A stretch of 64,000 bases of DNA from an uncultured Staphylococcaceae bacterium (GTDB taxonomy: Bacteria > Bacillota_I > Bacilli_A > ML615J-28 > CAG-313): NCBI GenBank assembly GCA_964541525.1, contig CAZIQF010000002.1, positions 1,775 through 65,774 of the forward strand. Direction: 5' to 3'. A model generated the notes under the pieces. That model did no database searches, had not been told where the DNA came from, and saw only the letters and a program-made list of their open reading frames with translations. The translations under genes were made by a program, and so were the position numbers. This document shows positions 3,390 to 32,273 of the stretch, in pieces (the stretch's first letter is position 1; each line of letters begins with the position of its first letter).

Positions 3390-3398
3390 GTCTACTCC

Positions 3399-5003: not shown

Positions 5004-5088
5004 AGATTGTTTTACCTCTTATAATATATTTTAACAAAAAAGTAAAGCGTTTACAAATGATAAACATTATTTTAGAAAGGATTGACTT

Positions 5089-5412: not shown

Positions 5413-5445
5413 AATCACTTTTATAGTTTTTTTACATAAAATAAA

Positions 5446-6030: not shown

Positions 6031-6044
6031 AAAATCCAAATAGT

Positions 6045-7255: not shown

Positions 7256-7408
7256 TTTAACCTCTTTTTTTGATAATTTTATATTATTTTATCATATTTT
7301 TTTTATCTTTGCAAATAAAAAATAAAAATAGATGTTTCACTTGCTTGAAATAAAAAAATATGATAAAATATATAAAAGAAACTAATCTTAATTAATCAAG
7401 GAGGGCAC

Positions 7409-10066
7409 ATGGCAAAGCAAAAACAAACACCAATTGTTATAGAACCTGAACGATTTTCGCCTTCACCCGAACAAGGGTTAACCGAGTCACAAATCAGCCT
7501 AAGAAAAGAACAAGGGCTTACAAATAAAATTATCAAAAAGAATGGTAAATCTTATTTATCAATCATAGTTAGTAATTTTTGTACACTATTTAATTTTATC
7601 TATTTAGTTATTTTTATATTGTTATTTACCAGCCAAAAAATGTATGGTAAGATTTCGATTACGAATTATACCTTCTTGATTATTGTTTTTGTTAATATTT
7701 TAATTGGAACAATTCAAGAGATTAAATCAAAGATTACAATTAGTAAATTACAATTAATTTCGACACCAACTGTTACTGTTGTAAGAGATGGAGTTCATCA
7801 AGATGTTAATATTAGCGATGTTGTATTAGATGATATTATTATTTTAACACCAGGAAAAGAAATTACTACCGATAGTATTTTAGTAAATGGTGAAGTCGAA
7901 GTTAATGAGTCACAGCTTACAGGTGAATCGGTTCCAATCAGAAAACAAGTTGGCGATATTCTATACTCTGGAAGTTTTGTTGTGTCTGGTAATTGTAGTT
8001 GTAAAGTTGAACGTATTGGTGCTGATAATGCGATTGAAAAATTATCGGCTCAAGCTAAGCAATATAAAAAGCCTAATTCCCAAATTTTAAATACTGTTAG
8101 GGGCTTAATCAAAATTATTACAGTTTTTTTAGTGATTACTGGAATATTAATGATTGTCCAAAACTATAATTTTGAAGGATTTAAGGAATCAACTAATTGG
8201 TTTGCAAAAATGATTTATGATCATGTTTATTTAGACTTTCTTGCAAAAGTTTTTAAAGGTGCTAATAACTGGTATGTAACGATTAATTCGACATGTACGG
8301 CACTGATTGGGATGATTCCATCAGGCTTAATTATGATGACATCAGGTGCTTTAGTACTAGGGGTAATTCGTCTTTCTAAACATCAAACCTTAGTTCAAGA
8401 TTTATATTGTGTGGAAATGTTGGCAAGAGTTGATGTATTATGTCTAGATAAAACTGGCACAATTACTGATGGCTCAATGTCTGTTGTCAATTATATTGAT
8501 TTACAAAAGGGAAAATATGATATTAAAACGATTGTTGCGAACTTGAATGCTTGTTTAAAAGAAACTAATTCAACTGCTAAAGCTCTTGAAAGTTATTTTG
8601 GCATTGATGGTTCTAAAGCGGCAACGCATGTTATTCCGTTTTCGTCCGATCGTAAGTACAGTGGTGTTGTTTTTGGTGAAGATACATTCTTAATCGGTGC
8701 TCCAGAATTTGTTTTGAAAACAAGTTTTGAAAGATATGCTGATTTAGTTAATAAGGAAGCAAATAAAGGATACCGGGTATTATGTCTTGCAGTAACAAAA
8801 CAAGATATTGTGAATGGGAAATTATCGCGTGCTCCTAAACCAATTGCTTTCATCTTGATTGAAGATCAAATTAGGCCTGAAGCAGCAGAGACCATTCGTT
8901 ATTTTAGAGAAAGTGGCGTTGAAGTTAAAGTTATTTCTGGGGATAATCCAATAACTGTATCAGAAGTAGCTAAACGAGTAGGAATTGCTAATGCTGAAAA
9001 TTACATTAGCCTAGATGGACTATCTGATGAAGAAGTTTATGAGGTTGCAAATAGTTATACGGTATTTGGACGGGTAAAACCAAATCAAAAACAAATTATT
9101 GTTAAGGCCTTAAAAGATAATAAAAAGACGGTTGCGATGACAGGTGATGGTGTTAATGATATTTTAGCATTAAAAGAAGCTGATTGTAGTATTGCAATGG
9201 CTTCGGGTAGTGATGCGGTTAGAAGTGTAGCTCAACTTGTCCTACTTGATTCATCATTTGCTTCCATGCCTAAAGTTGTAGATGAAGGAAGAAGAGCGAT
9301 TAACAATGTTCAAAAGATTGCAATGTTATTTTTAGTTAAAACTTTCTTTGTATTAACACTAGTTATATTGACTGTATTTGGCTTTTTCAAAAAAACATCT
9401 GGTGATGGATCATTTCCGTTCTCAAATCCAACCCAACTTTTAATGATTGAATTATTTGTTATAGGTATTCCATCAACATTCTTAACGATTCAACCAAATA
9501 AAAATCGAATTTCTGGTAACTTTTTATGGAATGTTTTGCAAAAAACTCTACCTGGTGTTGTTGCAATTGTTGTTGCGGTTATTGTGACATATTCGCTTCA
9601 TTATGTATGTGGCTTTGATATTACTGTGACCAAGACAATTGTTGTATTAACAACGACATTAATCGGTTTGATGATTTTATATCTTGCTTGCCGTCCGTTT
9701 AGTTGGAAAAAAATTATTTTATTTGCAGCAATGTGTTTATGCTGTGGCTTTATTTCTTTAGAATCGATGTATATGTTTCCAAAAATTGTAATTGGAAAGT
9801 TGAATTTAGGAGAAATTATCCATAATGAATTTCAATTATTCGATTTAATTATGAGAACTAGTGATGGCTATGCTAATCTAACGGCTGTTCTACTTACAAT
9901 TTGTTTAGTAGCTGGCTCATTTATCATTATGAGTATTTGTAGTTACATCATCGATATTATTAATCGAATTAATCTGGTTAGGACACTTAATAAATCTAAA
10001 CGAGAAGTACAAATTATTAATCGAATAGAAGACTACATTGATGAAGAAAGTGAGAATGTCATTTAA
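7409..10066 (+). CDS. Cation-transporting P-type ATPase (HAD superfamily; Ca2+/Mg2+ type)
   Basis: Phosphorylation site DKTGTIT, hinge TGDGVNDILALKEAD and 8-10 TM helices. 885 aa. RBS AAGGAGG upstream. Confidence 0.85.
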   Translation: MAKQKQTPIVIEPERFSPSPEQGLTESQISLRKEQGLTNKIIKKNGKSYLSIIVSNFCTLFNFIYLVIFILLFTSQKMYGKISITNYTFLIIVFVNILIGTIQEIKSKITISKLQLISTPTVTVVRDGVHQDVNISDVVLDDIIILTPGKEITTDSILVNGEVEVNESQLTGESVPIRKQVGDILYSGSFVVSGNCSCKVERIGADNAIEKLSAQAKQYKKPNSQILNTVRGLIKIITVFLVITGILMIVQNYNFEGFKESTNWFAKMIYDHVYLDFLAKVFKGANNWYVTINSTCTALIGMIPSGLIMMTSGALVLGVIRLSKHQTLVQDLYCVEMLARVDVLCLDKTGTITDGSMSVVNYIDLQKGKYDIKTIVANLNACLKETNSTAKALESYFGIDGSKAATHVIPFSSDRKYSGVVFGEDTFLIGAPEFVLKTSFERYADLVNKEANKGYRVLCLAVTKQDIVNGKLSRAPKPIAFILIEDQIRPEAAETIRYFRESGVEVKVISGDNPITVSEVAKRVGIANAENYISLDGLSDEEVYEVANSYTVFGRVKPNQKQIIVKALKDNKKTVAMTGDGVNDILALKEADCSIAMASGSDAVRSVAQLVLLDSSFASMPKVVDEGRRAINNVQKIAMLFLVKTFFVLTLVILTVFGFFKKTSGDGSFPFSNPTQLLMIELFVIGIPSTFLTIQPNKNRISGNFLWNVLQKTLPGVVAIVVAVIVTYSLHYVCGFDITVTKTIVVLTTTLIGLMILYLACRPFSWKKIILFAAMCLCCGFISLESMYMFPKIVIGKLNLGEIIHNEFQLFDLIMRTSDGYANLTAVLLTICLVAGSFIIMSICSYIIDIINRINLVRTLNKSKREVQIINRIEDYIDEESENVI

Positions 10067-10163
10067 ACTCTAAAGTGAAAACTTTGGAGTTTTTCATTTA
10101 TTTAGCCCATATTTTTTTTAATATTTATCATAAAATACATTGACGATGAAAGAAGGAAATATA

Positions 10164-10892
10164 ATGTACAATTTAATAATTAATAATATTTCTAAAACTT
10201 ATTATCAAAAAAACAAACCAGTAAAGGTTATTGAAAATCTATCATTAAAGGTGAAAAAGGGAGAAATTCTTGCAATCGTAGGACCAAGTGGTGGTGGAAA
10301 ATCAACCATTTTAAATCTAATATCTGGAATTATCGAACCGGATTCTGGAACAATTACAATTGATGGTAAAATTGGTTATATGTTTCAACATGATTTATTG
10401 TTTGAATGGCGTAATATTTTAGACAATCTTTTAATTGGTTTAGAGATTTCTAAAAAAACAACGAAAGAAGATCAAGAACAGGCATTAAAACTATTAGAAA
10501 AATATGAATTATTAGATTTTAAAAATGCTCATCCGTCAGAATTATCCGGTGGAATGCGTCAACGAATCGCTTTAATCCGAACTCTAATGATGAATCCTTC
10601 AATTTTATTGTTGGATGAACCATTTTCCGCACTAGATGCCCAAACGAGAATCAAGATTAGTAATGATATTTATCAAATGATTAAAGAAGAAAAGCTTACT
10701 GCTATCTTGGTTACACATGACATAGGCGAAGCGATTTCAATGGCAGATCGCATCATTGTTTTATCAAGACGACCAGCGACAATTATTAAAGAATATTCAG
10801 TTGATTTTGATGAATCCACACCACTTAAACGAAGAAGTAATCCTAATTTTAATCATTACTTTGAACAAATTTGGAGTGATTTAAGTGAATGA
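10164..10892 (+). CDS. ABC transporter ATP-binding protein (nitrate/sulfonate/taurine SsuB/TauB-type)
   Basis: GPSGGGKST, LSGGMRQR and LLLDEPFSALD. Start is taken at the ATG preceded by GAAGGA; the ORF track extends to 10140. Confidence 0.8.
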   Translation: MYNLIINNISKTYYQKNKPVKVIENLSLKVKKGEILAIVGPSGGGKSTILNLISGIIEPDSGTITIDGKIGYMFQHDLLFEWRNILDNLLIGLEISKKTTKEDQEQALKLLEKYELLDFKNAHPSELSGGMRQRIALIRTLMMNPSILLLDEPFSALDAQTRIKISNDIYQMIKEEKLTAILVTHDIGEAISMADRIIVLSRRPATIIKEYSVDFDESTPLKRRSNPNFNHYFEQIWSDLSE

Positions 10893-11691
10893 TGATTTAG
10901 GTTATATCAAATATTTGAAGCAATTAAAACTAAAAAGAATTAAAATTGTCATCTTACAAGTACTTATTTTAATGATCTTTTTTGGTATATGGGAAATTCT
11001 TGGTAAAAATGGAATTATCAATACGTTCTTATTTAGCTATCCAAGTGAAATTTTTAAAATTTTTTTGCAGTATTTTAAAACGGGTGAAATCTTTAAACAT
11101 ATTGGTATTTCTGTTTTTGAAACGATTTTAGGATTAATAATCGGAACAATAGTTGGATTGATTGTTGCAGTAATAATTTGGTGGAATGATTTACTTGCAA
11201 AAGTATTAGATCCCTATCTGGTTGTCTTAAATGCCCTTCCTAAAACCGCTCTTGCACCGATTATTATTATTTGGGTTGGAACCGGTATTGATGGAATTGT
11301 AGCAGTTGCGATTTCCATTTCTTTGATTTTAACCATTTTATCAGCATACCAATACTTTAAAAATGTTAGTTCAGAACAAATTCTAATGTTAAAAAGTTTT
11401 AAAGCAAGTAAATGGCAGATTCTAACAAAATTAATCTTACCGAGTAATATTGGTAATTTAATTAATTTGGTAAAAATTAATATTGGAATGAGTTGGGTTG
11501 GTGTTATAGTTGGGGAATTTATTGTATCAAAAAAAGGAATCGGCTATTTAATTATGTATGGTTCGCAAATATTTAAAATGGGACTAGTTATGATGGGAGT
11601 AATTGTCTTAAGCATTCTTTCTTTTATAATGTATGAAATCGTCAATCTAATTGAAAAAATATGGAAGGAAAAAAGCGATAATGATGTTTAG
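10885..11691 (+). CDS. ABC transporter permease (SsuC/TauC-type, BPD_transp_1)
   Basis: Six TM helices with EAA-like loop (KSFKASKWQILTKLILP). Overlaps the upstream ATPase gene. Confidence 0.75.
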   Translation: MNDDLGYIKYLKQLKLKRIKIVILQVLILMIFFGIWEILGKNGIINTFLFSYPSEIFKIFLQYFKTGEIFKHIGISVFETILGLIIGTIVGLIVAVIIWWNDLLAKVLDPYLVVLNALPKTALAPIIIIWVGTGIDGIVAVAISISLILTILSAYQYFKNVSSEQILMLKSFKASKWQILTKLILPSNIGNLINLVKINIGMSWVGVIVGEFIVSKKGIGYLIMYGSQIFKMGLVMMGVIVLSILSFIMYEIVNLIEKIWKEKSDNDV

Positions 11692-12694
11692 AAAAATTAA
11701 GAATTTATTATTAATCTTATTAGTTGGAGTATTTTTAGTAACAAGTACTAGTTGTACTAAAAATAACTTAAAAAAAGTTAAAGTAGCAGAAGTTGCTCAC
11801 AGTGTCTTTTATGCACCTCAATATGTAGCTATTTCACTAGGTTACTTTGAAGATGAGGGGTTAGAAATTGAATTAATTAATGCTAATGGAGCAGATAAAG
11901 TTACTGCATCGTTACTTTCAAAAGATGTCGAAATAGGTTTACAAGGACCTGAACCAACAATTTATTTGTATAAAAATAATTCTAATGACTATTTAATTAA
12001 TTTTGCCCAATTAACCACAACTGATGGTAGTTTTATTTTTGGTCGTGAAAAAATTGATAACTTTGATATTACAATGCTAAAGGGTAAATCAATATTAGGT
12101 GGTAGAGCCGGGGGTATGCCCGAAATGACATTAGAATATGTTATTAAAAAAGCTGGTTTGACCCTTGCTAAAAATGCTGATACTGCCGACGTCAATGTTA
12201 GAACGGATATTGCTTTTGCAGCAATGGCAGGAGCATTCTTAAGTGGTGAAGGAGATTTTACAACTTTATTTGAACCAACTGCATCCGAAATGGTTGCATC
12301 AGGCGAACTTTATTTATTAGAAAGTGTTGGACGTTTAGCCGGAGAAGTAGCATTTACTGCATATTCATGTACAGAATCATATTTAAAAAATAATCAAGAA
12401 ACCTTAGAAAAATTTACTAAAGCAATCTATAGAGGTCAACAATATGTTTGGAGTCATACCGATAGGGAAGTAGCTGAAATTATGAAAGAACACTTCGCTG
12501 ATATTGATGTTGAAACATTAGAATCAGTTGTAAATAGGTACAGAGCTATTGAAGCATGGGCCAAGACACCAGTCTTTAGTGAAACAGCTTTTGATAATCT
12601 TCAATTAATTATGATTGAAGCTGCAGAACTAGATACTAAAGTATCGTTTAAAACATTGGTTGATGTCACAATTGCAAAAAAAGTAACAGCTTAA
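11651..12694 (+). CDS. ABC transporter substrate-binding lipoprotein (NMT1/THI5 / SsuA-like)
   Basis: Signal peptide plus lipobox (VTSTSC). N-terminal HSVFYAPQYVA motif typical of NMT1/SsuA-family binding proteins. Hairpin terminator follows. Confidence 0.65.
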   Translation: MKKYGRKKAIMMFRKIKNLLLILLVGVFLVTSTSCTKNNLKKVKVAEVAHSVFYAPQYVAISLGYFEDEGLEIELINANGADKVTASLLSKDVEIGLQGPEPTIYLYKNNSNDYLINFAQLTTTDGSFIFGREKIDNFDITMLKGKSILGGRAGGMPEMTLEYVIKKAGLTLAKNADTADVNVRTDIAFAAMAGAFLSGEGDFTTLFEPTASEMVASGELYLLESVGRLAGEVAFTAYSCTESYLKNNQETLEKFTKAIYRGQQYVWSHTDREVAEIMKEHFADIDVETLESVVNRYRAIEAWAKTPVFSETAFDNLQLIMIEAAELDTKVSFKTLVDVTIAKKVTA

Positions 12695-12701
12695 TAATCA
12701 A

Positions 12702-12733
12702 TAAGTGTTAAGTCATTCTTAGCACTTATTTTA
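12702..12733 (+). terminator. Rho-independent terminator after ABC importer operon
   Basis: AAGTGTTAAG-loop-CTTAGCACTT followed by a T-run. Confidence 0.5.
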
Positions 12734-12839
12734 ATTTTTAATCATTCTTAAAGCGTTTTCAAAAAAAATGTATAATAATTTGCCAAATAATAAAAAAAAT
12801 GATATAATTTATGTGTAAAAATAGAAAGGTGTTTTATAT

Positions 12840-13961
12840 ATGGCTTATTTAAATTATTCTCGTGATTTATTAGACAAATTTTGTATGGAAGCTTTCCAAA
12901 AATTTGGATTTAGTGAAAAAGAAAGTAGAATTATTACTGATGTATTAATTATGTCAGATGACTTTGGGATTGAATCTCATGGTATGCAACGTTTAGTACG
13001 TTATCATAAAGGTATTGAAAGTGGTTTGATTAAAGTTGATGCAAAGCCAGAAGTTGTTTTTGAAACTCCAATTAGTGCGGTTGTTGATGGTCATTCAGCT
13101 ATGGGTCAACTTATTGGTCATAAAGCAATGGAACTTGCAATTGAAAAAGCAAAAACTGCTGGTGTAGGAATTGTTACAGTTCGTAATTCAAATCACTATG
13201 GAATTGCTGGTTATTATGCTCGTATGGCAATGGATCAAGGTTTAATTGGTTTCTCTTGTACCAATTCAGAAGCAATTATGGTTCCAACATTTGGTAAAAA
13301 AGCAATGCTTGGTTCTAATCCAATCGCATGTTCGGCTCCTGCTGAACCATATCCATTTTTCTTTGATGCTTCGACTACGGTTGTAACTCGTGGAAAACTT
13401 GAAATGTATAATAAAATGAACAAGCCAATTCCAACTGGCTGGGCAGTTAATAAGAGTGGTGAATCTTCTAATAACGCTGCTGAAGTATTAGGTAATATTA
13501 AGGCTCATGAAGGTGGTGGTATTGTTCCACTAGGCGGTGATACAGAACAATTAGGTGGTCATAAAGGTTATGGATATGGAATGCTTTGTGAATTGTTCTC
13601 ATCGATTTTATCATTAGGTATGACTTCCGCTCACACTATGCAAAATGGTTTCTCTGGTATTTGTCATGGCTTTATGGCAATTAATCCTGCCTACTTTGGT
13701 GATGCTGAAGCAATTAAGGCTCACTTTAGCGAATATTTAAATGAACTTCGCCAAAGTCCTAAAGCTGATGGTGCAGAACGTATCTACACTCATGGTGAAA
13801 AAGAAATGGAAGCAATTAAAAAAGTTCAAAAAGATGGTATCAATGTTAATATCAATACAGTTAGAGAAATGGTTGATATGGCTAAATATTTAGGTATGGA
13901 TGTAGAAGCATACTTTGGTGATATTAAATTTGAAGAAGATGGCTTCAAGAGTAGTTATTAA
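12840..13961 (+). CDS. Ldh_2 family (malate/L-lactate/L-sulfolactate dehydrogenase-type) NAD(P)H oxidoreductase
   Basis: 373 aa. N-terminal F..G.S.....I.TDVLI.SD..GIESHGM.RL, then VRNSNHYG and HKGYGYGM motifs of the YjmC/ComC Ldh_2 family. Confidence 0.75.
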   Translation: MAYLNYSRDLLDKFCMEAFQKFGFSEKESRIITDVLIMSDDFGIESHGMQRLVRYHKGIESGLIKVDAKPEVVFETPISAVVDGHSAMGQLIGHKAMELAIEKAKTAGVGIVTVRNSNHYGIAGYYARMAMDQGLIGFSCTNSEAIMVPTFGKKAMLGSNPIACSAPAEPYPFFFDASTTVVTRGKLEMYNKMNKPIPTGWAVNKSGESSNNAAEVLGNIKAHEGGGIVPLGGDTEQLGGHKGYGYGMLCELFSSILSLGMTSAHTMQNGFSGICHGFMAINPAYFGDAEAIKAHFSEYLNELRQSPKADGAERIYTHGEKEMEAIKKVQKDGINVNINTVREMVDMAKYLGMDVEAYFGDIKFEEDGFKSSY

Positions 13962-13980
13962 AATATAAAGAAGAGGTAAA

Positions 13981-15168
13981 ATGAAAATGGCTGAAAAAAC
14001 AGTTTATGAAAAAAGTTTAGAATTACATGAAAAACATGTTGGTAAAGTAGAAGTAGTATCAAAAGTAGAAGTTGAAAATCGTGAACAATTATCAATGGCA
14101 TATAGTCCAGGTGTTGCTGAACCATGTCGTAAAATTCATGCTAATCCCAATGATGTATATAAATATACTTCAAAGGGAAATTTAGTGGCAGTTGTATCTG
14201 ATGGTACTGCTGTCTTAGGTTTAGGTGATATTGGACCACTAGCTGCAATGCCAGTTATGGAAGGTAAAGCAATTTTATTTAAACAATTTGCTAATGTTGA
14301 TGCATTTCCAATTTGTTTAGATACTAAAGATGTCGATGAAATTGTTGAAACAGTTAAAAGACTAGCTCCAACATTTGGTGGAATTAACCTAGAAGATATT
14401 TCTGCTCCTAGATGTTTTGAAATTGAATCAAGACTTAAAAAAGAATTAGATATTCCAGTATTCCACGATGATCAACATGGTACTGCAATCGTTGTATGTG
14501 CTGGCTTAATCAATGCGTTAAAAGTTGTTGGTAAGAAGATGGAAGATATCCGTGTTGTTATTAATGGTGCTGGCTCTGCTGGTATTTCGATTTGTAAATT
14601 GATTTTACAATTTGGTGTTGGAGATGTTGTGTTAGTTGATCGTAATGGTGCTTTATGTCCTGGTGAAGAGTGGATGAATCCTGCTCAAAAAGCGATGGCT
14701 GAAGTGACTAATAAAGATCATCAAAGAGGAAATTTACAAGAAATAATCAAGGGAAAAGACCTATTCATTGGTGTTTCTGCTCCTAACTTAGTAACTGCAG
14801 AAATGGTTCAAACAATGGCTAAAGATCCAATTGTTTTTGCAATGGCTAATCCAACTCCAGAAATTATGCCAGATGTTGCAAAAGCAGGTGGTGCAAGAGT
14901 TGTTGCAACTGGTCGTTCTGATTTCCCTAACCAAATTAATAATGTTTTAGTATTCCCAGGAATCTTTAGGGGTGCTTTAGATGTTAGAGCAAAAGAAATC
15001 ACTGAAGAAATGAAAATTGCTGCTGCTCGCGCCATTGCATCATTAATTACCGAAGAAGAATTGAATGAAGAATATATTATTCCTTCGCCATTTGATAAAC
15101 GTGTTTGTGAAGTTGTTGCAAGAGAAGTTGGTAGAGTTGCAAGAGAACAAGGTATTGCTAGAAATTAA
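13981..15168 (+). CDS. maeA: NAD(P)-dependent malic enzyme (small, YtsJ/MaeA-type)
   Basis: SPGVAEPC, VVSDGTAVLGLGDIGP, dinucleotide fold VINGAGSAGI and ANPTPE. 395 aa. Confidence 0.85.
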   Translation: MKMAEKTVYEKSLELHEKHVGKVEVVSKVEVENREQLSMAYSPGVAEPCRKIHANPNDVYKYTSKGNLVAVVSDGTAVLGLGDIGPLAAMPVMEGKAILFKQFANVDAFPICLDTKDVDEIVETVKRLAPTFGGINLEDISAPRCFEIESRLKKELDIPVFHDDQHGTAIVVCAGLINALKVVGKKMEDIRVVINGAGSAGISICKLILQFGVGDVVLVDRNGALCPGEEWMNPAQKAMAEVTNKDHQRGNLQEIIKGKDLFIGVSAPNLVTAEMVQTMAKDPIVFAMANPTPEIMPDVAKAGGARVVATGRSDFPNQINNVLVFPGIFRGALDVRAKEITEEMKIAAARAIASLITEEELNEEYIIPSPFDKRVCEVVAREVGRVAREQGIARN

Positions 15169-15174
15169 TTATTA

Positions 15175-15202
15175 ATGTGCAAGATATCCTTGCACATTTT
15201 TA
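15175..15202 (+). terminator. Hairpin terminator after malic enzyme gene
   Basis: ATGTGCAAG-atatc-CTTGCACAT followed by a T-run. Confidence 0.5.
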
Positions 15203-15217
15203 AAAGAAAGGAAAAAT

Positions 15218-16489
15218 ATGGCTAAATTAAAATTACCTTATTATAAAGAACATATTGAATATGAAATTCCTGATGAACGCCTTGCAGGAATTCTTGTATC
15301 AAAAACAGAGGATTATTTTCCTACGCTTAGTGAAGAAGAACTCGTAGAAGATGCTTTAAATAATCCAATCGGATCTGCAAAATTATCTGATCTTGCAATC
15401 GGCAAAAACCATATAGTTGTTATTTCTAGTGATCATACACGTCCAGTTCCTTCCCATATAACAATGCCGATTATTTTGAAACATTTACGTAAAAATAATC
15501 CAAATGTAAAAATATCAATTTTAATTGCCACGGGCATGCATCGTGCTTCGACTCATGAAGAATTAGTTCATAAATATGGCGAAAAAATTGTTAATGAAGA
15601 ACGAATTGTAATGCATAATGCATATAAAGATGAAGATATGACTTTTAAAGGAATCTTACCTTCAGGTGGTGAACTTTGGGTTAATAAACTAATCGATGAA
15701 GCGGATTTATTAATTAGTGAAGGTTTTATTGAACCACACTTCTTTGCTGGCTTTTCTGGTGGTAGAAAATCAGTGTTACCAGGAATTGCTTCGAAAAAAA
15801 CGGTTCTTTGGAATCACAATGCAAGATTTATTGCAAGTAAAAATGCGAGAGCTGGTATTATCGATGATAATCCAATTCATAAAGATATGTTATATGCTGC
15901 TAAACAAGCAAAATTAGCATTTATTTTAAATGTCGTAATCAATTCAGAAAAGAAAATTATCAAAGCATTTGCTGGTGATTTAGAACAAGCCCACGCTCAT
16001 GGTTGTAAACTTGTTAATGATATTGCTTGTGTTAAACCAATTCACTCGGATATTGTTATTACAACTAATGGAGGTTATCCTTTAGATCAAAATATTTATC
16101 AAACAGTTAAAGGGATGACTGCAGGGGAAGCTTGTGTTAATGAAGGTGGTGTCATTATTATTCTATCTTCATGTGCTGATGGAACTGGTGGTGATTTCTT
16201 CTATAAATTACTTGCTGATTTTAAAGATGCAAAATCTGCTTATCAAAATTTAAATGATGTTGCTCCCGAAAATACTGAATTTGATCAATGGGAAGCACAA
16301 ATTTTAGCTCGAATTTTATGTAAAGCAAATGTTATTATTGTATCTAAACACTGTGATCCAAAAATTATTAACGCAATGCATATTATGCATGCATATACGC
16401 TAGATGAAGCTCTTGCAAAAGCCGAAGAACTTGTCGGAAAGAAATCAATTACGGTTATTCCTGATGGTATCAGTGTGATAATTAGATAA
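15218..16489 (+). CDS. larA: LarA-family nickel-pincer-dependent hydroxyacid racemase/epimerase homolog (DUF2088)
   Basis: 423 aa. Conserved SSDHTRPVP motif and overall LarA architecture. No larB/larC/larE in the window. Confidence 0.65.
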   Translation: MAKLKLPYYKEHIEYEIPDERLAGILVSKTEDYFPTLSEEELVEDALNNPIGSAKLSDLAIGKNHIVVISSDHTRPVPSHITMPIILKHLRKNNPNVKISILIATGMHRASTHEELVHKYGEKIVNEERIVMHNAYKDEDMTFKGILPSGGELWVNKLIDEADLLISEGFIEPHFFAGFSGGRKSVLPGIASKKTVLWNHNARFIASKNARAGIIDDNPIHKDMLYAAKQAKLAFILNVVINSEKKIIKAFAGDLEQAHAHGCKLVNDIACVKPIHSDIVITTNGGYPLDQNIYQTVKGMTAGEACVNEGGVIIILSSCADGTGGDFFYKLLADFKDAKSAYQNLNDVAPENTEFDQWEAQILARILCKANVIIVSKHCDPKIINAMHIMHAYTLDEALAKAEELVGKKSITVIPDGISVIIR

Positions 16490-16496
16490 AATACTT

Positions 16497-16534
16497 AAGA
16501 TAATTGTCAAAAATTAGACAATTATCTTTTATTT
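16497..16534 (+). terminator. Rho-independent terminator after larA-like gene
   Basis: AAGATAATTGTC-loop-GACAATTATCTT followed by a T-run. Confidence 0.55.
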
Positions 16535-16603
16535 ATGCAAAGCTGTTTAAAAAGATAAGAAAATATGATATAATGGTTTCATATAGAATTTGGAGATAAA
16601 AAC

Positions 16604-17509
16604 ATGAAATATTATTTTATATTTAATCAAGTAGCGGGAAAAGAAGCTAAAAGAAGTGCTTTTTTAGAAAAATTAAAAGACTTTATCAATAATCATCACG
16701 ATGATATTGAATTATATATTACTCAAAATGTTGGCGATGCAACGATTAAGGCTAAAACTATTGCTGAAAATCATCAAGGCGAAGATGTATGCATTTTTGC
16801 TTGTGGTGGTGATGGCACGATGAATGAGGTGGTTAATGGTATTGCTGAATATGACAATGTTATTTTAGGAATAATTCCTACGGGATCATGTAATGATTTC
16901 TTAAAAATTTATCCTGAATATGACTTTATGGATTTAGAGAAACAATTACAAGGTGAAGCTATTCCAATGGATTTAATCAAAGTTAATCATTTCTATTGTT
17001 TAAATGTAACTAACATTGGTTTTGATGCTTGTGTTAATTATGATCAAATTTGCTATCGCCCTCGCTTTAAAACGGTAAAAAAAGCTTATAATTATGCAAT
17101 CTTTAGAAATTTAATTAAACCATTAGGATATCAAGTTCATGTTGAAGTTGATGATCAGAATTTCTTTGATGGGAAAGCATTATTAATGGCATTTGGTAAT
17201 GGTGGATTCTATGGTGGAGGATATCATTGTGCACCAAAAGCATCACCTAATGATGGAATTATTGATGTAACTTTAATTAAGAAAATATCAATTCTTCGTT
17301 TCCTTACGTTAATTAATAAATATAAAACTGGTGAAGTATATGATAACGCTAAATATAAAAAACTTGCGTTATGGGCTAAAGCAAAGAAAATTAAAATTAC
17401 ATCTGATAAAGAACTTACAATTAGTATTGATGGTGAGACTATTCATCGAAAAGAAGTACTAATTGAAAATGTAATGCATAAAATTAGATTTATGCTTCCT
17501 AAAAAATAA
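16604..17509 (+). CDS. Diacylglycerol kinase catalytic-domain lipid kinase (YegS/BmrU family)
   Basis: ACGGDGTMNEV motif and DAGK_cat fold. 301 aa. Confidence 0.7.
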   Translation: MKYYFIFNQVAGKEAKRSAFLEKLKDFINNHHDDIELYITQNVGDATIKAKTIAENHQGEDVCIFACGGDGTMNEVVNGIAEYDNVILGIIPTGSCNDFLKIYPEYDFMDLEKQLQGEAIPMDLIKVNHFYCLNVTNIGFDACVNYDQICYRPRFKTVKKAYNYAIFRNLIKPLGYQVHVEVDDQNFFDGKALLMAFGNGGFYGGGYHCAPKASPNDGIIDVTLIKKISILRFLTLINKYKTGEVYDNAKYKKLALWAKAKKIKITSDKELTISIDGETIHRKEVLIENVMHKIRFMLPKK

Positions 17510-17516
17510 AAATATT

Positions 17517-17567
17517 GATTGTTTTTTATTTGTAAAGACTTTTTACTTTAAAAAACAATCTTTTTTT
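17517..17567 (+). terminator. Putative terminator (long-loop hairpin plus T-run)
   Basis: GATTGTTTTTT ... AAAAAACAATC followed by TTTTTTT. Confidence 0.35.
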
Positions 17568-17622
17568 GTTATAATATAATGTAAAAAGCAATAATATACT
17601 ATGATTAATTAAGGAGTTACAT

Positions 17623-18141
17623 ATGAATTATCAAGATTATATTACAATAATTGAAGATTTTCCTAAGAAAGGAATTTCATTTAAAGACATTACACCACTT
17701 TTACAAAATGGTGAAGCTTTTAAAGCTGTTACCTTAGACTTGATTGAATTTGCAAAAAAAGTTAATGCGACTGTAATCGTTGGTCCTGAATCTAGAGGTT
17801 TTATTTTTGGCTGTCCTGTTGCAACAGCACTTGGGCTTGGTTTTGTTCCGATTAGAAAACCAGGCAAATTGCCTCGAACTACTATTAGTAAAGAATACAG
17901 TTTAGAATATGGAACAAATGAATTATGTATGCATCAAGATGCAGTAAAACCTGGTGATCGGGTATTAATCGTTGATGATTTACTTGCAACAGGTGGTACA
18001 ATCGAAGCTGCAGTGGAATTAATTAGAAGTTTAGGAGCAGAAGTAGTTGGTTGTGCTTTTGTAATTGAACTTACTGAATTAAAAGGTAAAGAAAATTTAG
18101 AGGGAATTGAAGTTTTATCATTGATACAATATCCTTATTAA
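17623..18141 (+). CDS. apt: Adenine phosphoribosyltransferase
   Basis: PRPP-binding motif [13 protein letters not shown]. 172 aa. Conserved apt-relA-dtd synteny. Confidence 0.9.
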
Positions 18142-18177
18142 AATTTATATAACTAGAAAAAGAAAGGTGGGGAAATT

Positions 18178-20367
18178 ATGGATAGACCTAAAACTATAGA
18201 TGACATCATTGCGACCGTTAAATGCTATTTGAATGAAGAAAGTATCAATCTAATTTTGAAGGCTTATAACGTTGCAAAAACAATGCATGAAGGACAATTT
18301 CGTAAATCTGGCGATCCATATATCCAACATCCAGTCGAAGTTGCTTATATTCTTGCGACACTGCACGCCGGGCCTTCAACAATTGCTGCTGGTTTAATGC
18401 ATGATGTTTTAGAAGATACGCAAATGTCAAAAGATGAAATGATTGAAGAGTTTAATGCTGAAGTTGCTGAAATTGTTGATGGTGTTACAAAAATTAGTAA
18501 ACTAAAATATCATACTAAAGAAAAAGCACTAGCTCATAATCATGAAAAATTGCTGATTGCTATGGCAAAAGACGTTCGTGTTATTTTAGTTAAGTTAGTC
18601 GATCGTCTTCATAATATGCGAACAATTGAATTTCAACCCGAGGACAAGCGAAAAAGAATTGCTCAAGAAACCCTTGATTTATATGCTCCCCTTGCTCATC
18701 GACTAGGGATGTACCGAATTAAGGCAGAACTTGAAGATTTGAGCTTTAAAGCAATTGAGCCGGAAATGTATAAAGAAATATCTTCTTTAGTTGCCTCAAA
18801 AAAGAGTGAACGTGAAGAAGATATTGAAATTATGAAAAATAGCATCATTGAAATGTTAAAAAATAATCATATTGATGAGTACGATATTAAAGGTAGAATT
18901 AAAAATATCTATAGTATTTATCGTAAAATGATTACTAAAAATAAAAAAGTTGATGATATTTTTGACCTACTTGCTTTAAGAGTTATTGTTCCAACTGTAG
19001 GTGATTGTTATCACGTGCTTGGATTAATTCATAGTATCTATACGCCATTGCCTAAAAGATTTAAAGACTATATTGCGGTACCTAAACCTAACCTATATCA
19101 ATCATTACATACGACTGTTATCGGTCATGGTGGTAAAATTTTTGAAGTACAAATTAGAACTTATGAAATGGATAATGTAGCAGAGATTGGGATTGCTGCC
19201 CATTGGGCATATAAGGAAGGTGCTGGCTATTCACCACAAAAAGAACAACTGGAAATCACTGAGAAATTAAAATGGTATCGCGACTTAGCTACTTATATGG
19301 AAAATGGTAGTCAAGGAGATCCTCTAGATACAATTAAAGATGATATTTTTAGTGCGAATGTCTATGTATTTACACCAAATGGTGATGTTTATGACTTTCC
19401 GAGTGGTTCAATGCCATTAGATTTTGCCTATCGGATTCATTCTGAAATAGGTAATAGAACTGTTGGTGCGATTGTTAATGGTAAAATTGTACCACTGTCT
19501 TATCAATTGAAAACTGGTGATGTTGTTGAAATTAAGACTAATAAGTCATGCCCTGGTCCGACTGAAGCATGGTTAAAGCTTACAAAAACTAATCACGCAA
19601 AAAATAAGATTAGAACATTTATTAATAAAAAACAACGTGATCGCTATGTTGAGTTGGGCTTTTCTGATTTAGAAAAAATTTGCAAACTTAAAGAATTTGA
19701 TCTTAAAAGGTTTGATGAAAAGTTAATCAAAGAATATTTTTCAAAATTACAAATTAAGACTTTTGAAGATTTATGTTGCGAAGTGGGAAAAGGAACAATT
19801 TCAGCAATTGCGGTGATGAATAAAGTCTTATGTGTGAATGATGGCATTACTGATGATATTATGGCTTTGCAACAATATAGCGAAGCTACAAGTGGTCAAA
19901 GAGTAAAGAAGACGAGCCAAAATGGGTTTGGCATTTATATCGAAGGATTGTCAAAAGCCCAAATCAAACTTGGAAATTGCTGTCAACCTGTTTATGGTGA
20001 TCAAATCTTAGGCTATATTTCTAAAGGTAATGGTATTATCATCCATCGAGTTAAATGTCCTAATGCTGCAAGAGTTGATAGTGATCGTTTTATACAAGTT
20101 GAATGGGATCCTTCATTTAGTGGAAGAATTTTTACTACTACGCTAAAGGCGTTAGCTCAAGATCGAAAAAATATTGTAGCGGATATGATCAATGCTTTAA
20201 ACTATTGTAATGTTACAATTGTATCAGTTACATCAACTAAAAATCAAAATGATGAATGCGTTGCGAAATTTAAACTTCAAGTATCTAATATTGAAGATTT
20301 GAACAAAGCCATTCTTGCGTTAAATAAAATGCCAGAAATGTATTTTGTAGAAAGAATGTTCAAATAA
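18178..20367 (+). CDS. relA: Bifunctional (p)ppGpp synthetase/hydrolase RelA/SpoT (Rel)
   Basis: HD hydrolase domain (HDVLEDT), synthetase domain (RVIVPTVGDCY...YQSLHTTV), and TGS and ACT C-terminal domains. 729 aa. Confidence 0.9.
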   Translation: MDRPKTIDDIIATVKCYLNEESINLILKAYNVAKTMHEGQFRKSGDPYIQHPVEVAYILATLHAGPSTIAAGLMHDVLEDTQMSKDEMIEEFNAEVAEIVDGVTKISKLKYHTKEKALAHNHEKLLIAMAKDVRVILVKLVDRLHNMRTIEFQPEDKRKRIAQETLDLYAPLAHRLGMYRIKAELEDLSFKAIEPEMYKEISSLVASKKSEREEDIEIMKNSIIEMLKNNHIDEYDIKGRIKNIYSIYRKMITKNKKVDDIFDLLALRVIVPTVGDCYHVLGLIHSIYTPLPKRFKDYIAVPKPNLYQSLHTTVIGHGGKIFEVQIRTYEMDNVAEIGIAAHWAYKEGAGYSPQKEQLEITEKLKWYRDLATYMENGSQGDPLDTIKDDIFSANVYVFTPNGDVYDFPSGSMPLDFAYRIHSEIGNRTVGAIVNGKIVPLSYQLKTGDVVEIKTNKSCPGPTEAWLKLTKTNHAKNKIRTFINKKQRDRYVELGFSDLEKICKLKEFDLKRFDEKLIKEYFSKLQIKTFEDLCCEVGKGTISAIAVMNKVLCVNDGITDDIMALQQYSEATSGQRVKKTSQNGFGIYIEGLSKAQIKLGNCCQPVYGDQILGYISKGNGIIIHRVKCPNAARVDSDRFIQVEWDPSFSGRIFTTTLKALAQDRKNIVADMINALNYCNVTIVSVTSTKNQNDECVAKFKLQVSNIEDLNKAILALNKMPEMYFVERMFK

Positions 20368-32246: not shown

Positions 32247-32273
32247 TTTAGCACTCTAATATTATGAGTGCTA
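32247..32273. promoter_or_regulatory. CIRCE operator (HrcA site) immediately upstream of clpB RBS
   Basis: Perfect consensus TTAGCACTC-N9-GAGTGCTAA, preceded on the minus strand by TTGACA-N16-TATTAAT. Confidence 0.8.

What the first reader, a model, noticed from the sequence alone, without database searches (positions are those of the whole stretch)
10164..16489. SsuABC-type importer, Ldh_2 dehydrogenase, NAD-malic enzyme and a stand-alone LarA homolog: putative D-malate or hydroxy-acid racemisation pathway
The order is ABC ATPase, permease, NMT1-type binding lipoprotein, Ldh_2-family oxidoreductase, small malic enzyme, then a LarA-family protein. All are on one strand with short gaps. Characterised LarA homologs include lactate racemase and 2-hydroxyacid racemases/epimerases such as malate racemase. 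Pairing with a malic enzyme suggests import of a D-hydroxy-dicarboxylate, racemisation to L-malate, and oxidative decarboxylation to pyruvate. LarA needs the nickel-pincer cofactor made by LarB, LarC and LarE, and none of these is in the window.
Basis: partly seen in the sequence, partly recalled or inferred. Interest (0 to 1): 0.65.

Follow-up and report, generated by a model that had tools for sequence, protein, structure and literature searches.

The report
Lactate–malate transhydrogenase, malic enzyme, racemase operon
Three adjacent genes in an uncultured gut bacterium most likely let it use both mirror-image forms of lactate, by passing lactate's electrons to oxaloacetate and then decarboxylating the malate formed; the ABC importer next door is only a neighbour, and the proposed D-malate racemisation is not supported.

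Summary
The gene order is exactly as described: ABC ATPase, permease, NMT1 binding protein, Ldh_2, small malic enzyme (ME), LarA. The interpretation needs revising.

1. The importer is separated from Ldh_2 by a strong hairpin with a U-run and the best promoter-like site in the region. It flanks the other genes only in the three most syntenic relatives.
2. Ldh_2, ME and LarA form a conserved module. Of 59 informative related loci, 46 carry all three. They come from gut Bacilli, Clostridia and Oscillospiraceae MAGs, with rearranged order and unrelated flanks.
3. LarA is lactate-racemase type. NCBIfam scores it 620 bits (cutoff 460), and both malate-racemase models fall below cutoff. All catalytic and cofactor residues are present, as is the hydrophobic F175/F176/V297/W358 pocket, in all 53 LarAs.
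4. Ldh_2 is 70% identical, without gaps, to Veillonella Vpar_1595. That protein is the recently identified malate-lactate transhydrogenase (MLTH: L-lactate + oxaloacetate ⇌ pyruvate + L-malate), and it nests inside this orthogroup.

Best model: LarA converts D- to L-lactate, the MLTH-like enzyme transfers its electrons to oxaloacetate, and ME decarboxylates the malate to pyruvate with NAD(P)H. Enzyme activities, direction and oxaloacetate source are inferred. No larB, larC or larE lies in the window; the rest of the genome could not be searched.

The parts
10164..10892 (+). ABC transporter ATP-binding protein (neighbour, not part of the conserved module)
   Evidence: PF00005, 115 bits. Best NCBIfam hits are SaoA, sulfate and taurine-type ATPases, all below cutoff. 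It is co-located with the trio only in L013, L015 and L026.
10885..11691 (+). ABC transporter permease (neighbour)
   Evidence: PF00528. SaoP, SsuC and TauC models all score far below cutoff.
11681..12694 (+). NMT1/THI5-like substrate-binding protein, substrate unknown (neighbour)
   Evidence: PF09084 and PF13379. SsuA_fam scores 42 bits against a cutoff of 163.5. It has only weak PDB relatives, such as the 4NMY binding protein and THI5. No riboswitch was found upstream.
12700..12730 (+). Terminator-like hairpin followed by a U-run, ending the transporter unit
   Evidence: 13-bp stem found in the scan. RNA fold gives -14.0 kcal/mol, z = -7.7, and 0 of 200 shuffles fold as well.
12780..12808 (+). 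Promoter-like site for the Ldh_2-ME-LarA unit
   Evidence: TTGCCA-17-TATAAT with TG extension, 11 of 12 matches. This is the best site in 9800-18300. An AGAAAGGTG ribosome-binding site lies before the ATG at 12840.
12840..13961 (+). Ldh_2-family (S)-2-hydroxyacid oxidoreductase, predicted malate-lactate transhydrogenase (MLTH-like)
   Evidence: - PF02615, 380 bits.
- 70% identity (250/356), 0 gaps, 518 bits to Veillonella parvula Vpar_1595. That protein is the experimentally identified MLTH (PMC13034625).
- Only 43% identity to the best PDB relative, 1V9N, which is uncharacterised.
- Veillonella MLTH nests inside this orthogroup in an NJ tree.
13981..15168 (+). Small malic enzyme, NAD(P)-dependent (external gene callers start it at 13987)
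   Evidence: - PF00390 and PF03949.
- 542 bits to PDB entry 5CEE, deposited as 'NAD-dependent malic enzyme'.
- The malolactic-enzyme model scores 96 bits against a cutoff of 850, so it is not a malolactic enzyme.
- Cofactor preference was not determined.
15174..15198 (+). Conserved hairpin (AATGTGCAAG-loop-CTTGCACATT) plus U-run between ME and LarA; possible partial terminator or attenuator
   Evidence: - RNA fold gives -14.4 kcal/mol, z = -4.0.
- The motif TGTGCA-N4-14-TGCACA occurs once in the window, against 0.02 expected.
- It occurs once, at the same place, in each of 19 related Bacilli loci (L002-L026; plus L001 and L083, which carry the window's own genes), and once in L080 at a different position.
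- No Rfam match.
15218..16489 (+). LarA, nickel-pincer-nucleotide (NPN)-dependent lactate racemase (group 1 type)
   Evidence: - NF033504 scores 620.6 bits against a cutoff of 460; the Mar models fall below cutoff.
- 487 bits to L. plantarum and T. thermosaccharolyticum LarA structures, at 57% and 54% identity.
- Residues D72, R75, H108, H174, F175, F176, K184, H200, Y294, Q295, V297, K298 and W358 are all present.
16497..16528 (+). Terminator-like hairpin ending the unit
   Evidence: 12-bp stem followed by a T-run. The next gene (lipid kinase, 16604) has its own promoter-like site at 16546-16574.

Best explanation
The region holds two units.

**Unit 1 (10164-12694).** An ABC importer of unknown substrate. 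It is unrelated to the rest.

**Unit 2 (12840-16489).** A conserved three-gene module working at the lactate/pyruvate/malate/oxaloacetate node. The proposed steps are:

1. LarA, an NPN-dependent lactate racemase, interconverts D- and L-lactate.
2. The Ldh_2 protein, a close relative of Veillonella malate-lactate transhydrogenase, moves the hydride of L-lactate onto oxaloacetate through tightly bound NAD. This gives pyruvate and L-malate.
3. Malic enzyme oxidatively decarboxylates L-malate to pyruvate + CO2 + NAD(P)H.

Net reaction: DL-lactate + oxaloacetate + NAD(P)+ -> 2 pyruvate + CO2 + NAD(P)H.

Direct oxidation of lactate by NAD+ is strongly uphill. Standard potentials are about -190 mV for pyruvate/lactate and -320 mV for NAD+/NADH, while oxaloacetate/malate is about -172 mV (textbook values). 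Routing the electrons through oxaloacetate/malate and pulling the sequence with a decarboxylation makes it feasible. It works like a malate shunt fed by lactate instead of NADH.

**Shown:** gene content, orthology, active-site residues, and conservation of the linkage.

**Inferred:** MLTH activity of this orthologue, the direction of flux, NAD versus NADP use by ME, and the oxaloacetate source (PEP carboxykinase, pyruvate carboxylase, aspartate or citrate), which is encoded elsewhere.
For: 1. **Conserved linkage.** Of 59 informative loci from GTDB species genomes holding a 68-89% identical Ldh_2, 46 have ME and LarA within 5.5 kb.
   - Six have ME only, four LarA only, and three neither.
   - Gene order differs between lineages: Ldh2-ME-LarA versus Ldh2-LarA-ME.
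   - Flanking genes share no conserved family.
2. **Ldh_2 identity.** It is 70% identical to Vpar_1595 with no gaps.
   - Vpar_1595 was purified as native MLTH.
   - The recombinant protein was active only with both L-malate and pyruvate present.
   - Veillonella MLTH falls inside the radiation of trio-linked Ldh_2 proteins. Identity within the group is at least 64%, against 40-43% to the outgroup.
3. **Contexts elsewhere.** Across taxa the same orthogroup sits next to genes for both substrate pairs.
   - In Veillonella it is followed by a lactate permease.
   - In Lactobacillus pasteurii it lies among citrate lyase, fumarase, a fumarate-reductase flavoprotein and a dicarboxylate/citrate carrier.
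   - Here it sits with a lactate racemase and a malic enzyme.
   - One enzyme using L-lactate/pyruvate and L-malate/oxaloacetate explains all three contexts. A plain LDH or a plain MDH leaves one partner unexplained.
4. **LarA type.** All 53 LarAs next to this Ldh_2 carry the complete catalytic and NPN-binding set and the lactate-type pocket.
   - All eight that were tested pass the lactate-racemase HMM and fail the Mar HMMs.
   - They form two lineages that are only 47-53% identical to each other. That is as far apart as the two characterised lactate racemases are from each other. The pairing is therefore either ancient or arose twice.
   - L. plantarum LarA does not racemise malate (Table 1 of PMC7583248).
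5. **Transcription signals.** A promoter-like site lies before Ldh_2 and a terminator after LarA. The internal gaps are short.
Against: - No enzyme activity was measured. 70% identity to a single characterised MLTH does not prove that the NAD is tightly bound or that the enzyme uses both substrate pairs.
- No oxaloacetate-forming enzyme and no lactate or dicarboxylate transporter is linked to the trio in the window or in any locus. The source of oxaloacetate and the direction of flux are therefore guesses.
- If oxaloacetate must be made from pyruvate with ATP, the energetic gain is small.
- A conserved hairpin with a U-run between ME and LarA in this lineage could uncouple LarA expression from the other two genes.
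- larB, larC and larE were not found in the window, and the genome could not be searched.
- The NJ tree has no support values.
- Some relatives carry Ldh_2 alone or with only one partner.
Confidence: 0.55

Rival explanations
1. Two-step 'malolactic' route with an ordinary, freely NAD(H)-exchanging Ldh_2. ME converts L-malate to pyruvate + CO2 + NADH. Ldh_2 acts as an L-lactate dehydrogenase that re-oxidises the NADH, and LarA equilibrates the L-lactate to DL-lactate. The same enzymes could also run in reverse, from lactate to malate.
For: - The Ldh_2 family contains NAD(H)-dependent (S)-2-hydroxyacid dehydrogenases.
- Pyruvate is a metabolite shared with ME, and lactate is shared with LarA, so this also explains the linkage.
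- The ME is closest to PDB entry 5CEE, deposited as an NAD-dependent malic enzyme.
Against: - The closest characterised relative by far is MLTH (70% identity), not an NAD-exchanging LDH.
- Characterised NAD(H)-exchanging relatives (ComC) prefer sulfopyruvate and oxaloacetate.
- Racemising a waste product gives no obvious benefit.
- The citrate-lyase/fumarase context of the L. pasteurii orthologue points to oxaloacetate/malate use.
Confidence: 0.2
2. A D-hydroxy-dicarboxylate (D-malate, or sulfolactate) is imported by the ABC system and racemised by LarA to the L-form. It is then oxidised by Ldh_2 (acting as MDH) or decarboxylated by ME.
For: - In the literature, malic enzyme next to a LarA homologue was used to predict malate racemase Mar2 (PMC7583248).
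- The Ldh_2 clade includes enzymes acting on malate and sulfolactate.
Against: - LarA fails both Mar HMM cutoffs and passes the lactate-racemase cutoff.
- It has F175/F176/V297/W358 rather than the Tyr-Lys/Gln/Lys residues that bind malate's second carboxylate. This holds in all 53 sequences.
- L. plantarum LarA is inactive on malate.
- The ME association reported in the literature is for LarAH group 6, not group 1.
- The importer is separated by a terminator and promoter and is not conserved with the trio.
Confidence: 0.05
3. Adjacent but functionally separate. Ldh_2 acting as NADH-MDH together with ME forms a classical malate shunt (oxaloacetate -> malate -> pyruvate, moving reducing power from NADH to NADPH). 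LarA independently supplies D-lactate, for example for the cell envelope.
For: - MDH + ME malate shunts are established, for example in Clostridium thermocellum and Entamoeba (general knowledge). An Entamoeba Ldh_2-type 'MDH' and an Entamoeba ME are both among the PDB relatives.
- Six loci have Ldh_2 + ME without LarA.
- The hairpin between ME and LarA could separate their expression.
Against: - LarA stays next to this Ldh_2 through gene-order changes and across two divergent LarA lineages.
- Four loci have Ldh_2 + LarA without ME.
- The nearest characterised enzyme uses lactate as the hydride donor.
Confidence: 0.12

Closest known systems
Veillonella malate-lactate transhydrogenase (MLTH, EC 1.1.99.7; Vpar_1595; PMC13034625)
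   Same: - Same Pfam family (Ldh_2) and the same size (373 versus 379 aa, about 40 kDa).
- 70% identity without gaps.
- The Veillonella clade nests inside this orthogroup.
   Different: - The host is not Veillonella. It is an uncultured low-GC gut Bacilli lineage, and there are Clostridia relatives.
- The gene is linked to malic enzyme and lactate racemase rather than to a lactate permease.
- Here malate would be decarboxylated. In Veillonella it is reduced to succinate and propionate (general knowledge).
- Activity is untested here.
LarA lactate racemase of Lactiplantibacillus plantarum (larABCDE operon) and Thermoanaerobacterium thermosaccharolyticum
   Same: - 57% and 54% identity.
- Identical catalytic, NPN-binding and substrate-pocket residues.
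- Passes the NCBIfam equivalog model.
   Different: - No larB, larC, larE, larD or larR next to it.
- It is embedded with Ldh_2 and ME, a context not listed for LarA group 1 in the published neighbourhood survey.
Anaerobic lactate-utilisation clusters pairing LarA with a stereospecific lactate dehydrogenase/Etf complex and a lactate permease (group-1 LarA context in PMC7583248 Table S1; a racemase requirement for full DL-lactate use is shown in bioRxiv 10.64898/2026.09.09.750506)
   Same: - A racemase feeds a stereospecific lactate-oxidising enzyme.
- The cluster addresses the unfavourable redox potential of lactate oxidation.
   Different: - Here the acceptor would be oxaloacetate via an Ldh_2 transhydrogenase, followed by decarboxylation.
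- It does not use flavin-based electron confurcation with Etf.
- No permease is linked.
Malate shunt (PEP carboxykinase - malate dehydrogenase - malic enzyme), e.g. Clostridium thermocellum, Entamoeba histolytica
   Same: The sequence oxaloacetate -> L-malate -> pyruvate + CO2 + NAD(P)H, with a small malic enzyme.
   Different: - The reductant for oxaloacetate would be L-lactate rather than NADH.
- The dehydrogenase is Ldh_2-type.
- This comparison rests on general knowledge and was not tested here.
Malate racemase Mar2 (LarAH6) with adjacent malic enzyme
   Same: A LarA-superfamily enzyme next to a malic enzyme.
   Different: - Different LarA group. The HMM score is below cutoff, and the match to Mar2 is 206 bits against 487 bits for the lactate racemases.
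- The pocket residues are hydrophobic rather than cationic.

Membership tests
LarA lactate racemase (LarA group 1) | Scores above the curated cutoff of the NCBIfam equivalog NF033504 | tested here: met
   620.6 bits against a cutoff of 460. Eight partner LarAs from related loci score 578-632 bits.
LarA lactate racemase (LarA group 1) | Catalytic His108/His174 (with Asp72 and Lys298), and NPN-binding Arg75, Lys184 (covalent tether) and His200 (Ni ligand) | tested here: met
   All are present in the window protein and invariant in 53 of 53 sequences. The residue list is from PMC7583248.
LarA lactate racemase (LarA group 1) | Lactate-type substrate pocket: Phe175-Phe176 loop, Val297 and Trp358 | tested here: met
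   F175, F176, V297 and W358 are invariant in 53 of 53 sequences. The only deviation from L. plantarum is P355F and T359E, and E359 is also found in the T. thermosaccharolyticum enzyme.
LarA lactate racemase (LarA group 1) | NPN cofactor biosynthesis genes larB, larC and larE present in the genome | not testable with these tools
   - None is in the 64-kb window.
- Only about 10 kb around related loci could be read.
- One related MAG locus (L032) carries a genuine, stand-alone LarE about 7 kb from its Ldh_2-LarA pair (TIGR00268, 344 bits against a cutoff of 150). These genes can therefore be scattered.
- The source genome itself could not be searched.
LarA lactate racemase (LarA group 1) | Lactate racemisation activity | not testable with these tools
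   Needs an enzyme assay.
Malate racemase (LarAH5 / LarAH6, Mar) | Scores above the cutoff of NF052593 or NF052595 | tested here: not met
   363.4 bits against 500, and 292.8 bits against 462. The same holds for eight partner LarAs.
Malate racemase (LarAH5 / LarAH6, Mar) | Cationic or polar pocket: Tyr-Lys loop after the catalytic His, Gln before the catalytic Lys, and Lys in helix 14 | tested here: not met
   The window protein has Phe-Phe, Val and Trp at these positions.
Malate-lactate transhydrogenase (MLTH, EC 1.1.99.7) | Ldh_2 (PF02615/COG2055) protein of about 40 kDa | tested here: met
   PF02615, 380 bits, 373 aa. Vpar_1595 is 379 aa and carries the same domains.
Malate-lactate transhydrogenase (MLTH, EC 1.1.99.7) | The threshold the authors used to call putative MLTHs: at least 70% identity and at least 90% coverage to Vpar_1595 | tested here: inconclusive
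   BLASTP gives 70% identity over 356 of 373 residues, about 95% coverage. The global MAFFT alignment gives 68%. This sits right at the threshold, which the authors applied only within Veillonellales.
Malate-lactate transhydrogenase (MLTH, EC 1.1.99.7) | Groups with Vpar_1595 rather than with other characterised Ldh_2 enzymes | tested here: met
   - The Veillonella clade nests within the trio-linked orthogroup, and a long branch separates the group from P. horikoshii 1V9N (43% identity). The tree is NJ without bootstrap.
- PDB relatives score 296 bits (1V9N), 231 bits (3I0P) and 211 bits (ComC, 2X06) by phmmer. The match to Vpar_1595 is 518 bits by BLASTP.
Malate-lactate transhydrogenase (MLTH, EC 1.1.99.7) | Tightly bound NAD, ping-pong kinetics, and activity only when both a donor and an acceptor are present | not testable with these tools
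   This is a biochemical property, and no sequence signature for it is known.
Malic enzyme (small prokaryotic type) | malic N-terminal domain plus Malic_M NAD(P)-binding domain, and close similarity to solved malic enzymes | tested here: met
   - PF00390 (122 bits) and PF03949 (107 bits).
- 542 bits to 5CEE and 447 bits to 2A9F.
- The malolactic-enzyme model scores 96 bits against a cutoff of 850, so that family is not met.
SsuABC / TauABC aliphatic sulfonate importer | Binding protein, permease and ATPase reach the SsuA/SsuC/SsuB (or Tau) model cutoffs | tested here: not met
   - SsuA_fam: 42.4 bits against 163.5.
- SsuC: 84.8 bits against 347.
- SsuB-type PRK11247: 154 bits against 395.
- Only the broad NMT1/BPD_transp_1/ABC_tran folds are shared.
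Single operon spanning importer to LarA | No terminator or promoter between the importer and Ldh_2, and the importer conserved alongside the metabolic genes | tested here: not met
   - A hairpin with a U-run lies at 12700-12730 (z = -7.7).
- An 11-of-12 promoter-like site lies at 12780-12808.
- The importer is present next to the trio in only 3 of about 50 trio loci.

The most novel reading that the evidence does not exclude
The Ldh_2-ME-LarA trio may be a previously unrecognised route for anaerobic oxidation of DL-lactate, widespread in gut Firmicutes. A racemase funnels both enantiomers to an MLTH, an enzyme so far thought unique to Veillonella. The MLTH reduces oxaloacetate, and malic enzyme then releases CO2 and NAD(P)H. 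This 'lactate-fed malate shunt' would overcome the thermodynamic barrier of lactate oxidation without electron-confurcating LDH/Etf complexes. The conserved hairpin before larA may tune how much racemase is made.
Probability: 0.35. Interest if true: 0.75.

Novelty: new variant of a known kind. Interest (0 to 1): 0.6.

Why it matters
Lactate turnover is a key cross-feeding step in the gut, and D-lactate accumulation is harmful. The anaerobic routes for lactate use I am aware of are LDH/Etf confurcation and, in Veillonella, MLTH feeding the succinate-propionate pathway.

The gene for MLTH was identified only in 2026 and was described as unique to Veillonella. Here, 64-89% identical orthologues occur in at least 80 species-level genomes of uncultured gut Bacilli, Oscillospiraceae and other Clostridia. 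They are usually welded to a lactate racemase and a malic enzyme.

If the predicted chemistry holds, it would have three consequences:

1. It extends MLTH well beyond Veillonella.
2. It defines a new, compact lactate-oxidation module that can be recognised in metagenomes.
3. It corrects the tempting annotation shortcut 'LarA next to malic enzyme = malate racemase'.

Tried and rejected
- **Riboswitch or leader upstream of the importer or of Ldh_2.** Rfam found nothing at gathering threshold over the whole window, and nothing relevant at E<=1 over 9900-13000 and 12650-16650.
- **Source genome.**
  - Exact-protein look-ups returned only short metagenome contigs identical to the window, or nothing. 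The contig could not be extended or named.
  - The 103-kb NCBI contig listed for P0001 was not returned.
- **larB/C/E.**
This is weak evidence.
It found none in the window.
  - A PurE probe for LarB found nothing.
  - No LarC probe was available.
- **Conserved accessory genes around the trio** (transporter, regulator, oxaloacetate-forming enzyme). ORF clustering of 80 loci found none. Probes for lactate permease, fumarase, fumarate reductase, a DASS carrier and citrate lyase found nothing linked to the trio.
- **Lactate-utilisation (Etf) genes next to the Anaerostipes sp. 992a and Lachnospiraceae Ldh_2 (L065, L068).** Rejected on reading the sequences.
- **Residue-level substrate prediction for Ldh_2.**
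  - The structural paper on ComC is not held.
  - The AllD paper shows that the closest PDB entries (1V9N, 3I0P) are structural-genomics proteins with no known activity.
  - This line was therefore dropped.
- **The ME-LarA hairpin as a fixed-spacing protein operator (for example LarR/Crp-type).** Rejected because half-site spacing varies from 5 to 12 nt. A literature search for a Lar box gave nothing usable.
- **Literature search for a described LarA + malic enzyme + Ldh_2 cluster.** Nothing was found. Table S1 of PMC7583248 lists neither COG2055 nor malic enzyme for LarA group 1.

Full report
**Observation.**

The window is about 30% G+C. Its closest relatives are faecal metagenome-assembled genomes labelled Bacilli, 'Mollicutes', Acholeplasmatales or Erysipelotrichaceae.

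They belong to the stated families:

| Gene | Coordinates | Family |
|---|---|---|
| ABC ATPase | 10164-10892 | PF00005 |
| Permease | 10885-11691 | PF00528 |
| NMT1-type binding protein | 11681-12694 | PF09084/PF13379 |
| Ldh_2 | 12840-13961 | PF02615 |
| Small malic enzyme | 13981/13987-15168 | PF00390 + PF03949 |
| LarA | 15218-16489 | PF09861 + PF21113 |

Gene calls on independent metagenome contigs that carry identical proteins agree. No larB, larC or larE is present among the window's ORFs.

**The importer is a neighbour, not part of the pathway.**

- Between the binding-protein gene and Ldh_2 lies a 13-bp hairpin followed by a U-run (12700-12730; -14.0 kcal/mol, z = -7.7).
- After it comes the best sigma-70-like site of the whole 8.5-kb region (TTGCCA-17-TGnTATAAT, 12780-12808), then a good ribosome-binding site.
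- Among 80 loci from other species genomes that encode a 68-89% identical Ldh_2, the importer accompanies the metabolic genes only in L013, L015 and L026. Those three also share the P-type ATPase upstream and the lipid kinase downstream, so this is plain local synteny.
- The transporter proteins do not reach the cutoffs of the Ssu or Tau models; SsuA_fam scores 42 against 163.5.
- The binding protein has only remote solved relatives.
- No riboswitch was found.
- The substrate of the importer is unknown.

**Ldh_2, malic enzyme and LarA form a conserved module.**

- Of 59 related loci with enough downstream sequence, 46 have both ME and LarA within 5.5 kb of Ldh_2. Six have ME only, four have LarA only, and three have neither.
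- The module occurs in gut Bacilli MAGs and several Clostridia lineages in the order Ldh2-ME-LarA.
- In Faecousia/Oscillospiraceae the order is Ldh2-LarA-ME.
- Clustering of all flanking ORFs found no other conserved neighbour: no transporter, no regulator and no lar biosynthesis gene.
- Linkage that survives rearrangement and relocation across such distances indicates functional coupling.

**LarA is a lactate racemase by every test available.**

- It scores 620.6 bits on the NCBIfam lactate-racemase equivalog (cutoff 460). It falls below the cutoffs of both malate-racemase models and of the LarAH10 model.
- It is 57% identical to the L. plantarum lactate racemase and 54% to the T. thermosaccharolyticum one (487 bits each). 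It scores 206 bits against malate racemase Mar2.
- Desguin et al. (PMC7583248) define the signature positions. The window protein has the catalytic and cofactor-binding set D72, R75, H108, H174, K184, H200 and K298.
- It also has the lactate-type hydrophobic pocket F175, F176, V297 and W358. Mar2 has Tyr-Lys, Gln and Lys there to bind the second carboxylate.
- These residues are invariant in all 53 LarAs found next to this Ldh_2.
- Those LarAs fall into two lineages that are only 47-53% identical to each other. That is as far apart as the two characterised lactate racemases are from one another. All eight that were tested pass the lactate-racemase model.
- L. plantarum LarA does not racemise malate (Table 1 of PMC7583248).
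- The published neighbourhood survey links malic enzyme to LarAH group 6 (Mar2), not to group 1. It lists no Ldh_2 (COG2055) for group 1.

**What the Ldh_2 protein is.**

- Its best solved relatives are P. horikoshii 1V9N (296 bits, 43% identity), Entamoeba 3I0P and the archaeal sulfolactate dehydrogenase ComC.
- The first two are structural-genomics entries of unknown activity. ComC prefers sulfopyruvate and oxaloacetate.
- A literature search for an enzyme acting on both lactate and malate led to a 2026 paper (PMC13034625).
  - It identifies Veillonella parvula Vpar_1595, an Ldh_2-family protein, as malate-lactate transhydrogenase (EC 1.1.99.7).
  - The reaction is L-lactate + oxaloacetate ⇌ pyruvate + L-malate, through tightly bound NAD.
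  - The enzyme was described there as unique to Veillonella.
- The sequence, taken from the paper's supplement, is 70% identical to the window protein over 356 residues with no gap (518 bits).
- Searching with Vpar_1595 returns many of the same Oscillospiraceae and Lachnospiraceae proteins that the window protein returns, at 70-76% identity.
- In a neighbour-joining tree the Veillonella clade nests inside the trio-linked proteins, far from the outgroup. The tree has no support values.

The genomic contexts of this orthogroup elsewhere touch both substrate pairs:

- In two Veillonella lineages the gene is followed by a lactate permease.
- In Lactobacillus pasteurii it sits between fumarase, a fumarate-reductase flavoprotein, an RraA-like protein and a dicarboxylate/citrate carrier on one side, and the citrate lyase genes on the other.

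An enzyme using L-lactate/pyruvate and L-malate/oxaloacetate explains these contexts. It also explains why, in the window, one gene is tied both to a lactate racemase and to a malic enzyme. A plain LDH or a plain MDH leaves one partner unexplained.

**Proposed mechanism.**

1. LarA equilibrates D- and L-lactate.
2. The MLTH-like enzyme oxidises L-lactate while reducing oxaloacetate to L-malate.
3. Malic enzyme converts L-malate to pyruvate, CO2 and NAD(P)H.

From standard potentials (general knowledge), direct lactate oxidation by NAD+ is strongly endergonic. The values are about -190 mV for pyruvate/lactate, -172 mV for oxaloacetate/malate and -320 mV for NAD. The transhydrogenation is near equilibrium, and the decarboxylation pulls the sequence forward.

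If oxaloacetate comes from PEP via PEP carboxykinase, the scheme is a malate shunt in which lactate replaces NADH as the reductant.

- Shown: the genes, their orthology, the active-site residues and the conserved linkage.
- Inferred: MLTH activity in this orthologue, the direction of flux, the cofactor preference of ME and the source of oxaloacetate.

The malic enzyme is a standard small type (542 bits to PDB entry 5CEE, deposited as an NAD-dependent malic enzyme). It is not a malolactic enzyme.

**Transcription.**

- A promoter-like site precedes Ldh_2, and a hairpin with a T-run follows LarA (16497-16528).
- The Ldh_2-ME gap is 19-25 nt.
- The 49-nt ME-LarA spacer holds a stable hairpin, AATGTGCAAG-ATATC-CTTGCACATT, followed by UUUUU (-14.4 kcal/mol, z = -4.0).
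- The core TGTGCA-N4-14-TGCACA occurs once in the window against 0.02 expected. It also occurs once, always at this position, in each of 19 related Bacilli loci.
- Its stem sequence is conserved while the loop varies, and L019 shows covariation in the outer stem. Half-site spacing of 5-12 nt argues against a fixed-spacing operator.
- It is absent where ME and LarA abut in Clostridia, and it has no Rfam match.
- It may be a partial terminator that lowers or regulates racemase expression. This is unexplained, and it slightly weakens the simple single-operon picture.

**Cofactor genes.**

- LarA needs the nickel-pincer nucleotide made by LarB, LarC and LarE. None is in the window.
- The source genome could not be reached with the tools.
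- One related Clostridia MAG locus (L032) carries a genuine, stand-alone LarE about 7 kb from its Ldh_2-LarA pair (344 bits against a cutoff of 150). Such genomes do encode NPN synthesis, and the genes can be scattered.
- Strict conservation of the cofactor-binding residues in 53 sequences argues that these LarAs are functional.
- The question remains open for this particular genome.

**Rivals.**

- **Ordinary NAD(H)-exchanging L-lactate dehydrogenase.** This gives a two-step malolactic route plus racemisation. It uses the same parts and cannot be excluded without biochemistry (confidence about 0.2).
- **Independent functions** (MDH + ME malate shunt, with LarA acting separately). This is disfavoured by the persistence of the LarA linkage across two LarA lineages and by the loci that have Ldh_2 + LarA only (about 0.12).
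This is contradicted by the LarA typing and by the transporter analysis (about 0.05).

**Novelty and verdict.**

Each component belongs to a known family. The literature available here describes neither MLTH orthologues outside Veillonella nor their conserved fusion into a module with lactate racemase and malic enzyme.

I rate this a new variant of a known kind, of moderate-to-high interest. It turns an annotation that looks like 'malate racemase pathway' into a testable hypothesis for a compact, widespread route of DL-lactate oxidation in uncultured gut Firmicutes.

Noticed in passing
window 15174-15198 (also L002-L026 at the ME-LarA spacer): A sequence-conserved hairpin (ATGTGCAAT...ATTGCACAT plus a U-run) occurs once per locus, always between the malic enzyme and LarA genes. 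It is found in the Bacilli lineage only. The loop is variable and the stem is invariant. There is no Rfam match, and its function (attenuator, processing site or stability element) is unknown.
   Followed up: partly
L032 1856-2668 (-): A stand-alone LarE (TIGR00268, 344 bits) lies about 7 kb from an Ldh_2-LarA pair in a Clostridia MAG. It sits next to an amino-acid ABC transporter, with no larB or larC beside it. NPN biosynthesis genes are therefore scattered in these genomes.
   Followed up: partly
L088/L089 (Lactobacillus pasteurii) 1765-13653: An MLTH-type Ldh_2 (71% identical to Vpar_1595) is embedded between fumarase, a fumarate-reductase flavoprotein, an RraA-like protein and a DASS/CitMHS carrier on one side, and citrate lyase citCDEFX on the other. 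This suggests lactate-driven oxaloacetate reduction in a citrate-to-succinate route in a lactobacillus.
   Followed up: no
L086/L087 and L090/L091 (Veillonella) 8001-11176: In Veillonella the MLTH gene is followed directly by a lactate permease gene (PF02652). This context is not discussed in the parts of the MLTH identification paper that were read.
   Followed up: no
window 32254-34100: About 1.8 kb downstream of the ClpB-like gene has no ORF longer than 81 aa, only short membrane-like fragments. It may be a decayed gene or a non-coding stretch.
   Followed up: no
window 20794-23881: Two large overlapping-end ORFs (577 and 465 aa) downstream of dtd have no Pfam match. The second has predicted membrane segments at its C-terminus. 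Both are conserved on an independent metagenome contig (L083).
   Followed up: no
window 44828-48697 (-): A Schlafen/AlbA_2 + HATPase_c_4 protein (441 aa) lies next to two ORFs (204 and 478 aa) without any Pfam match. The segment has very low G+C (about 24%). It may be a mobile or defence-related island.
   Followed up: no
window 885-5003 (-): An 834-aa fused ABC ATPase-FtsX permease and a separate ABC ATPase lie next to a 534-aa WG-repeat protein. This is an unusual fused exporter architecture.
   Followed up: no
window 55383-56396 (+): An aspartate-ammonia ligase (AsnA) is present, so the organism uses aspartate and hence oxaloacetate-derived carbon. This bears on where the oxaloacetate for the proposed pathway could come from or go to.
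   Followed up: no
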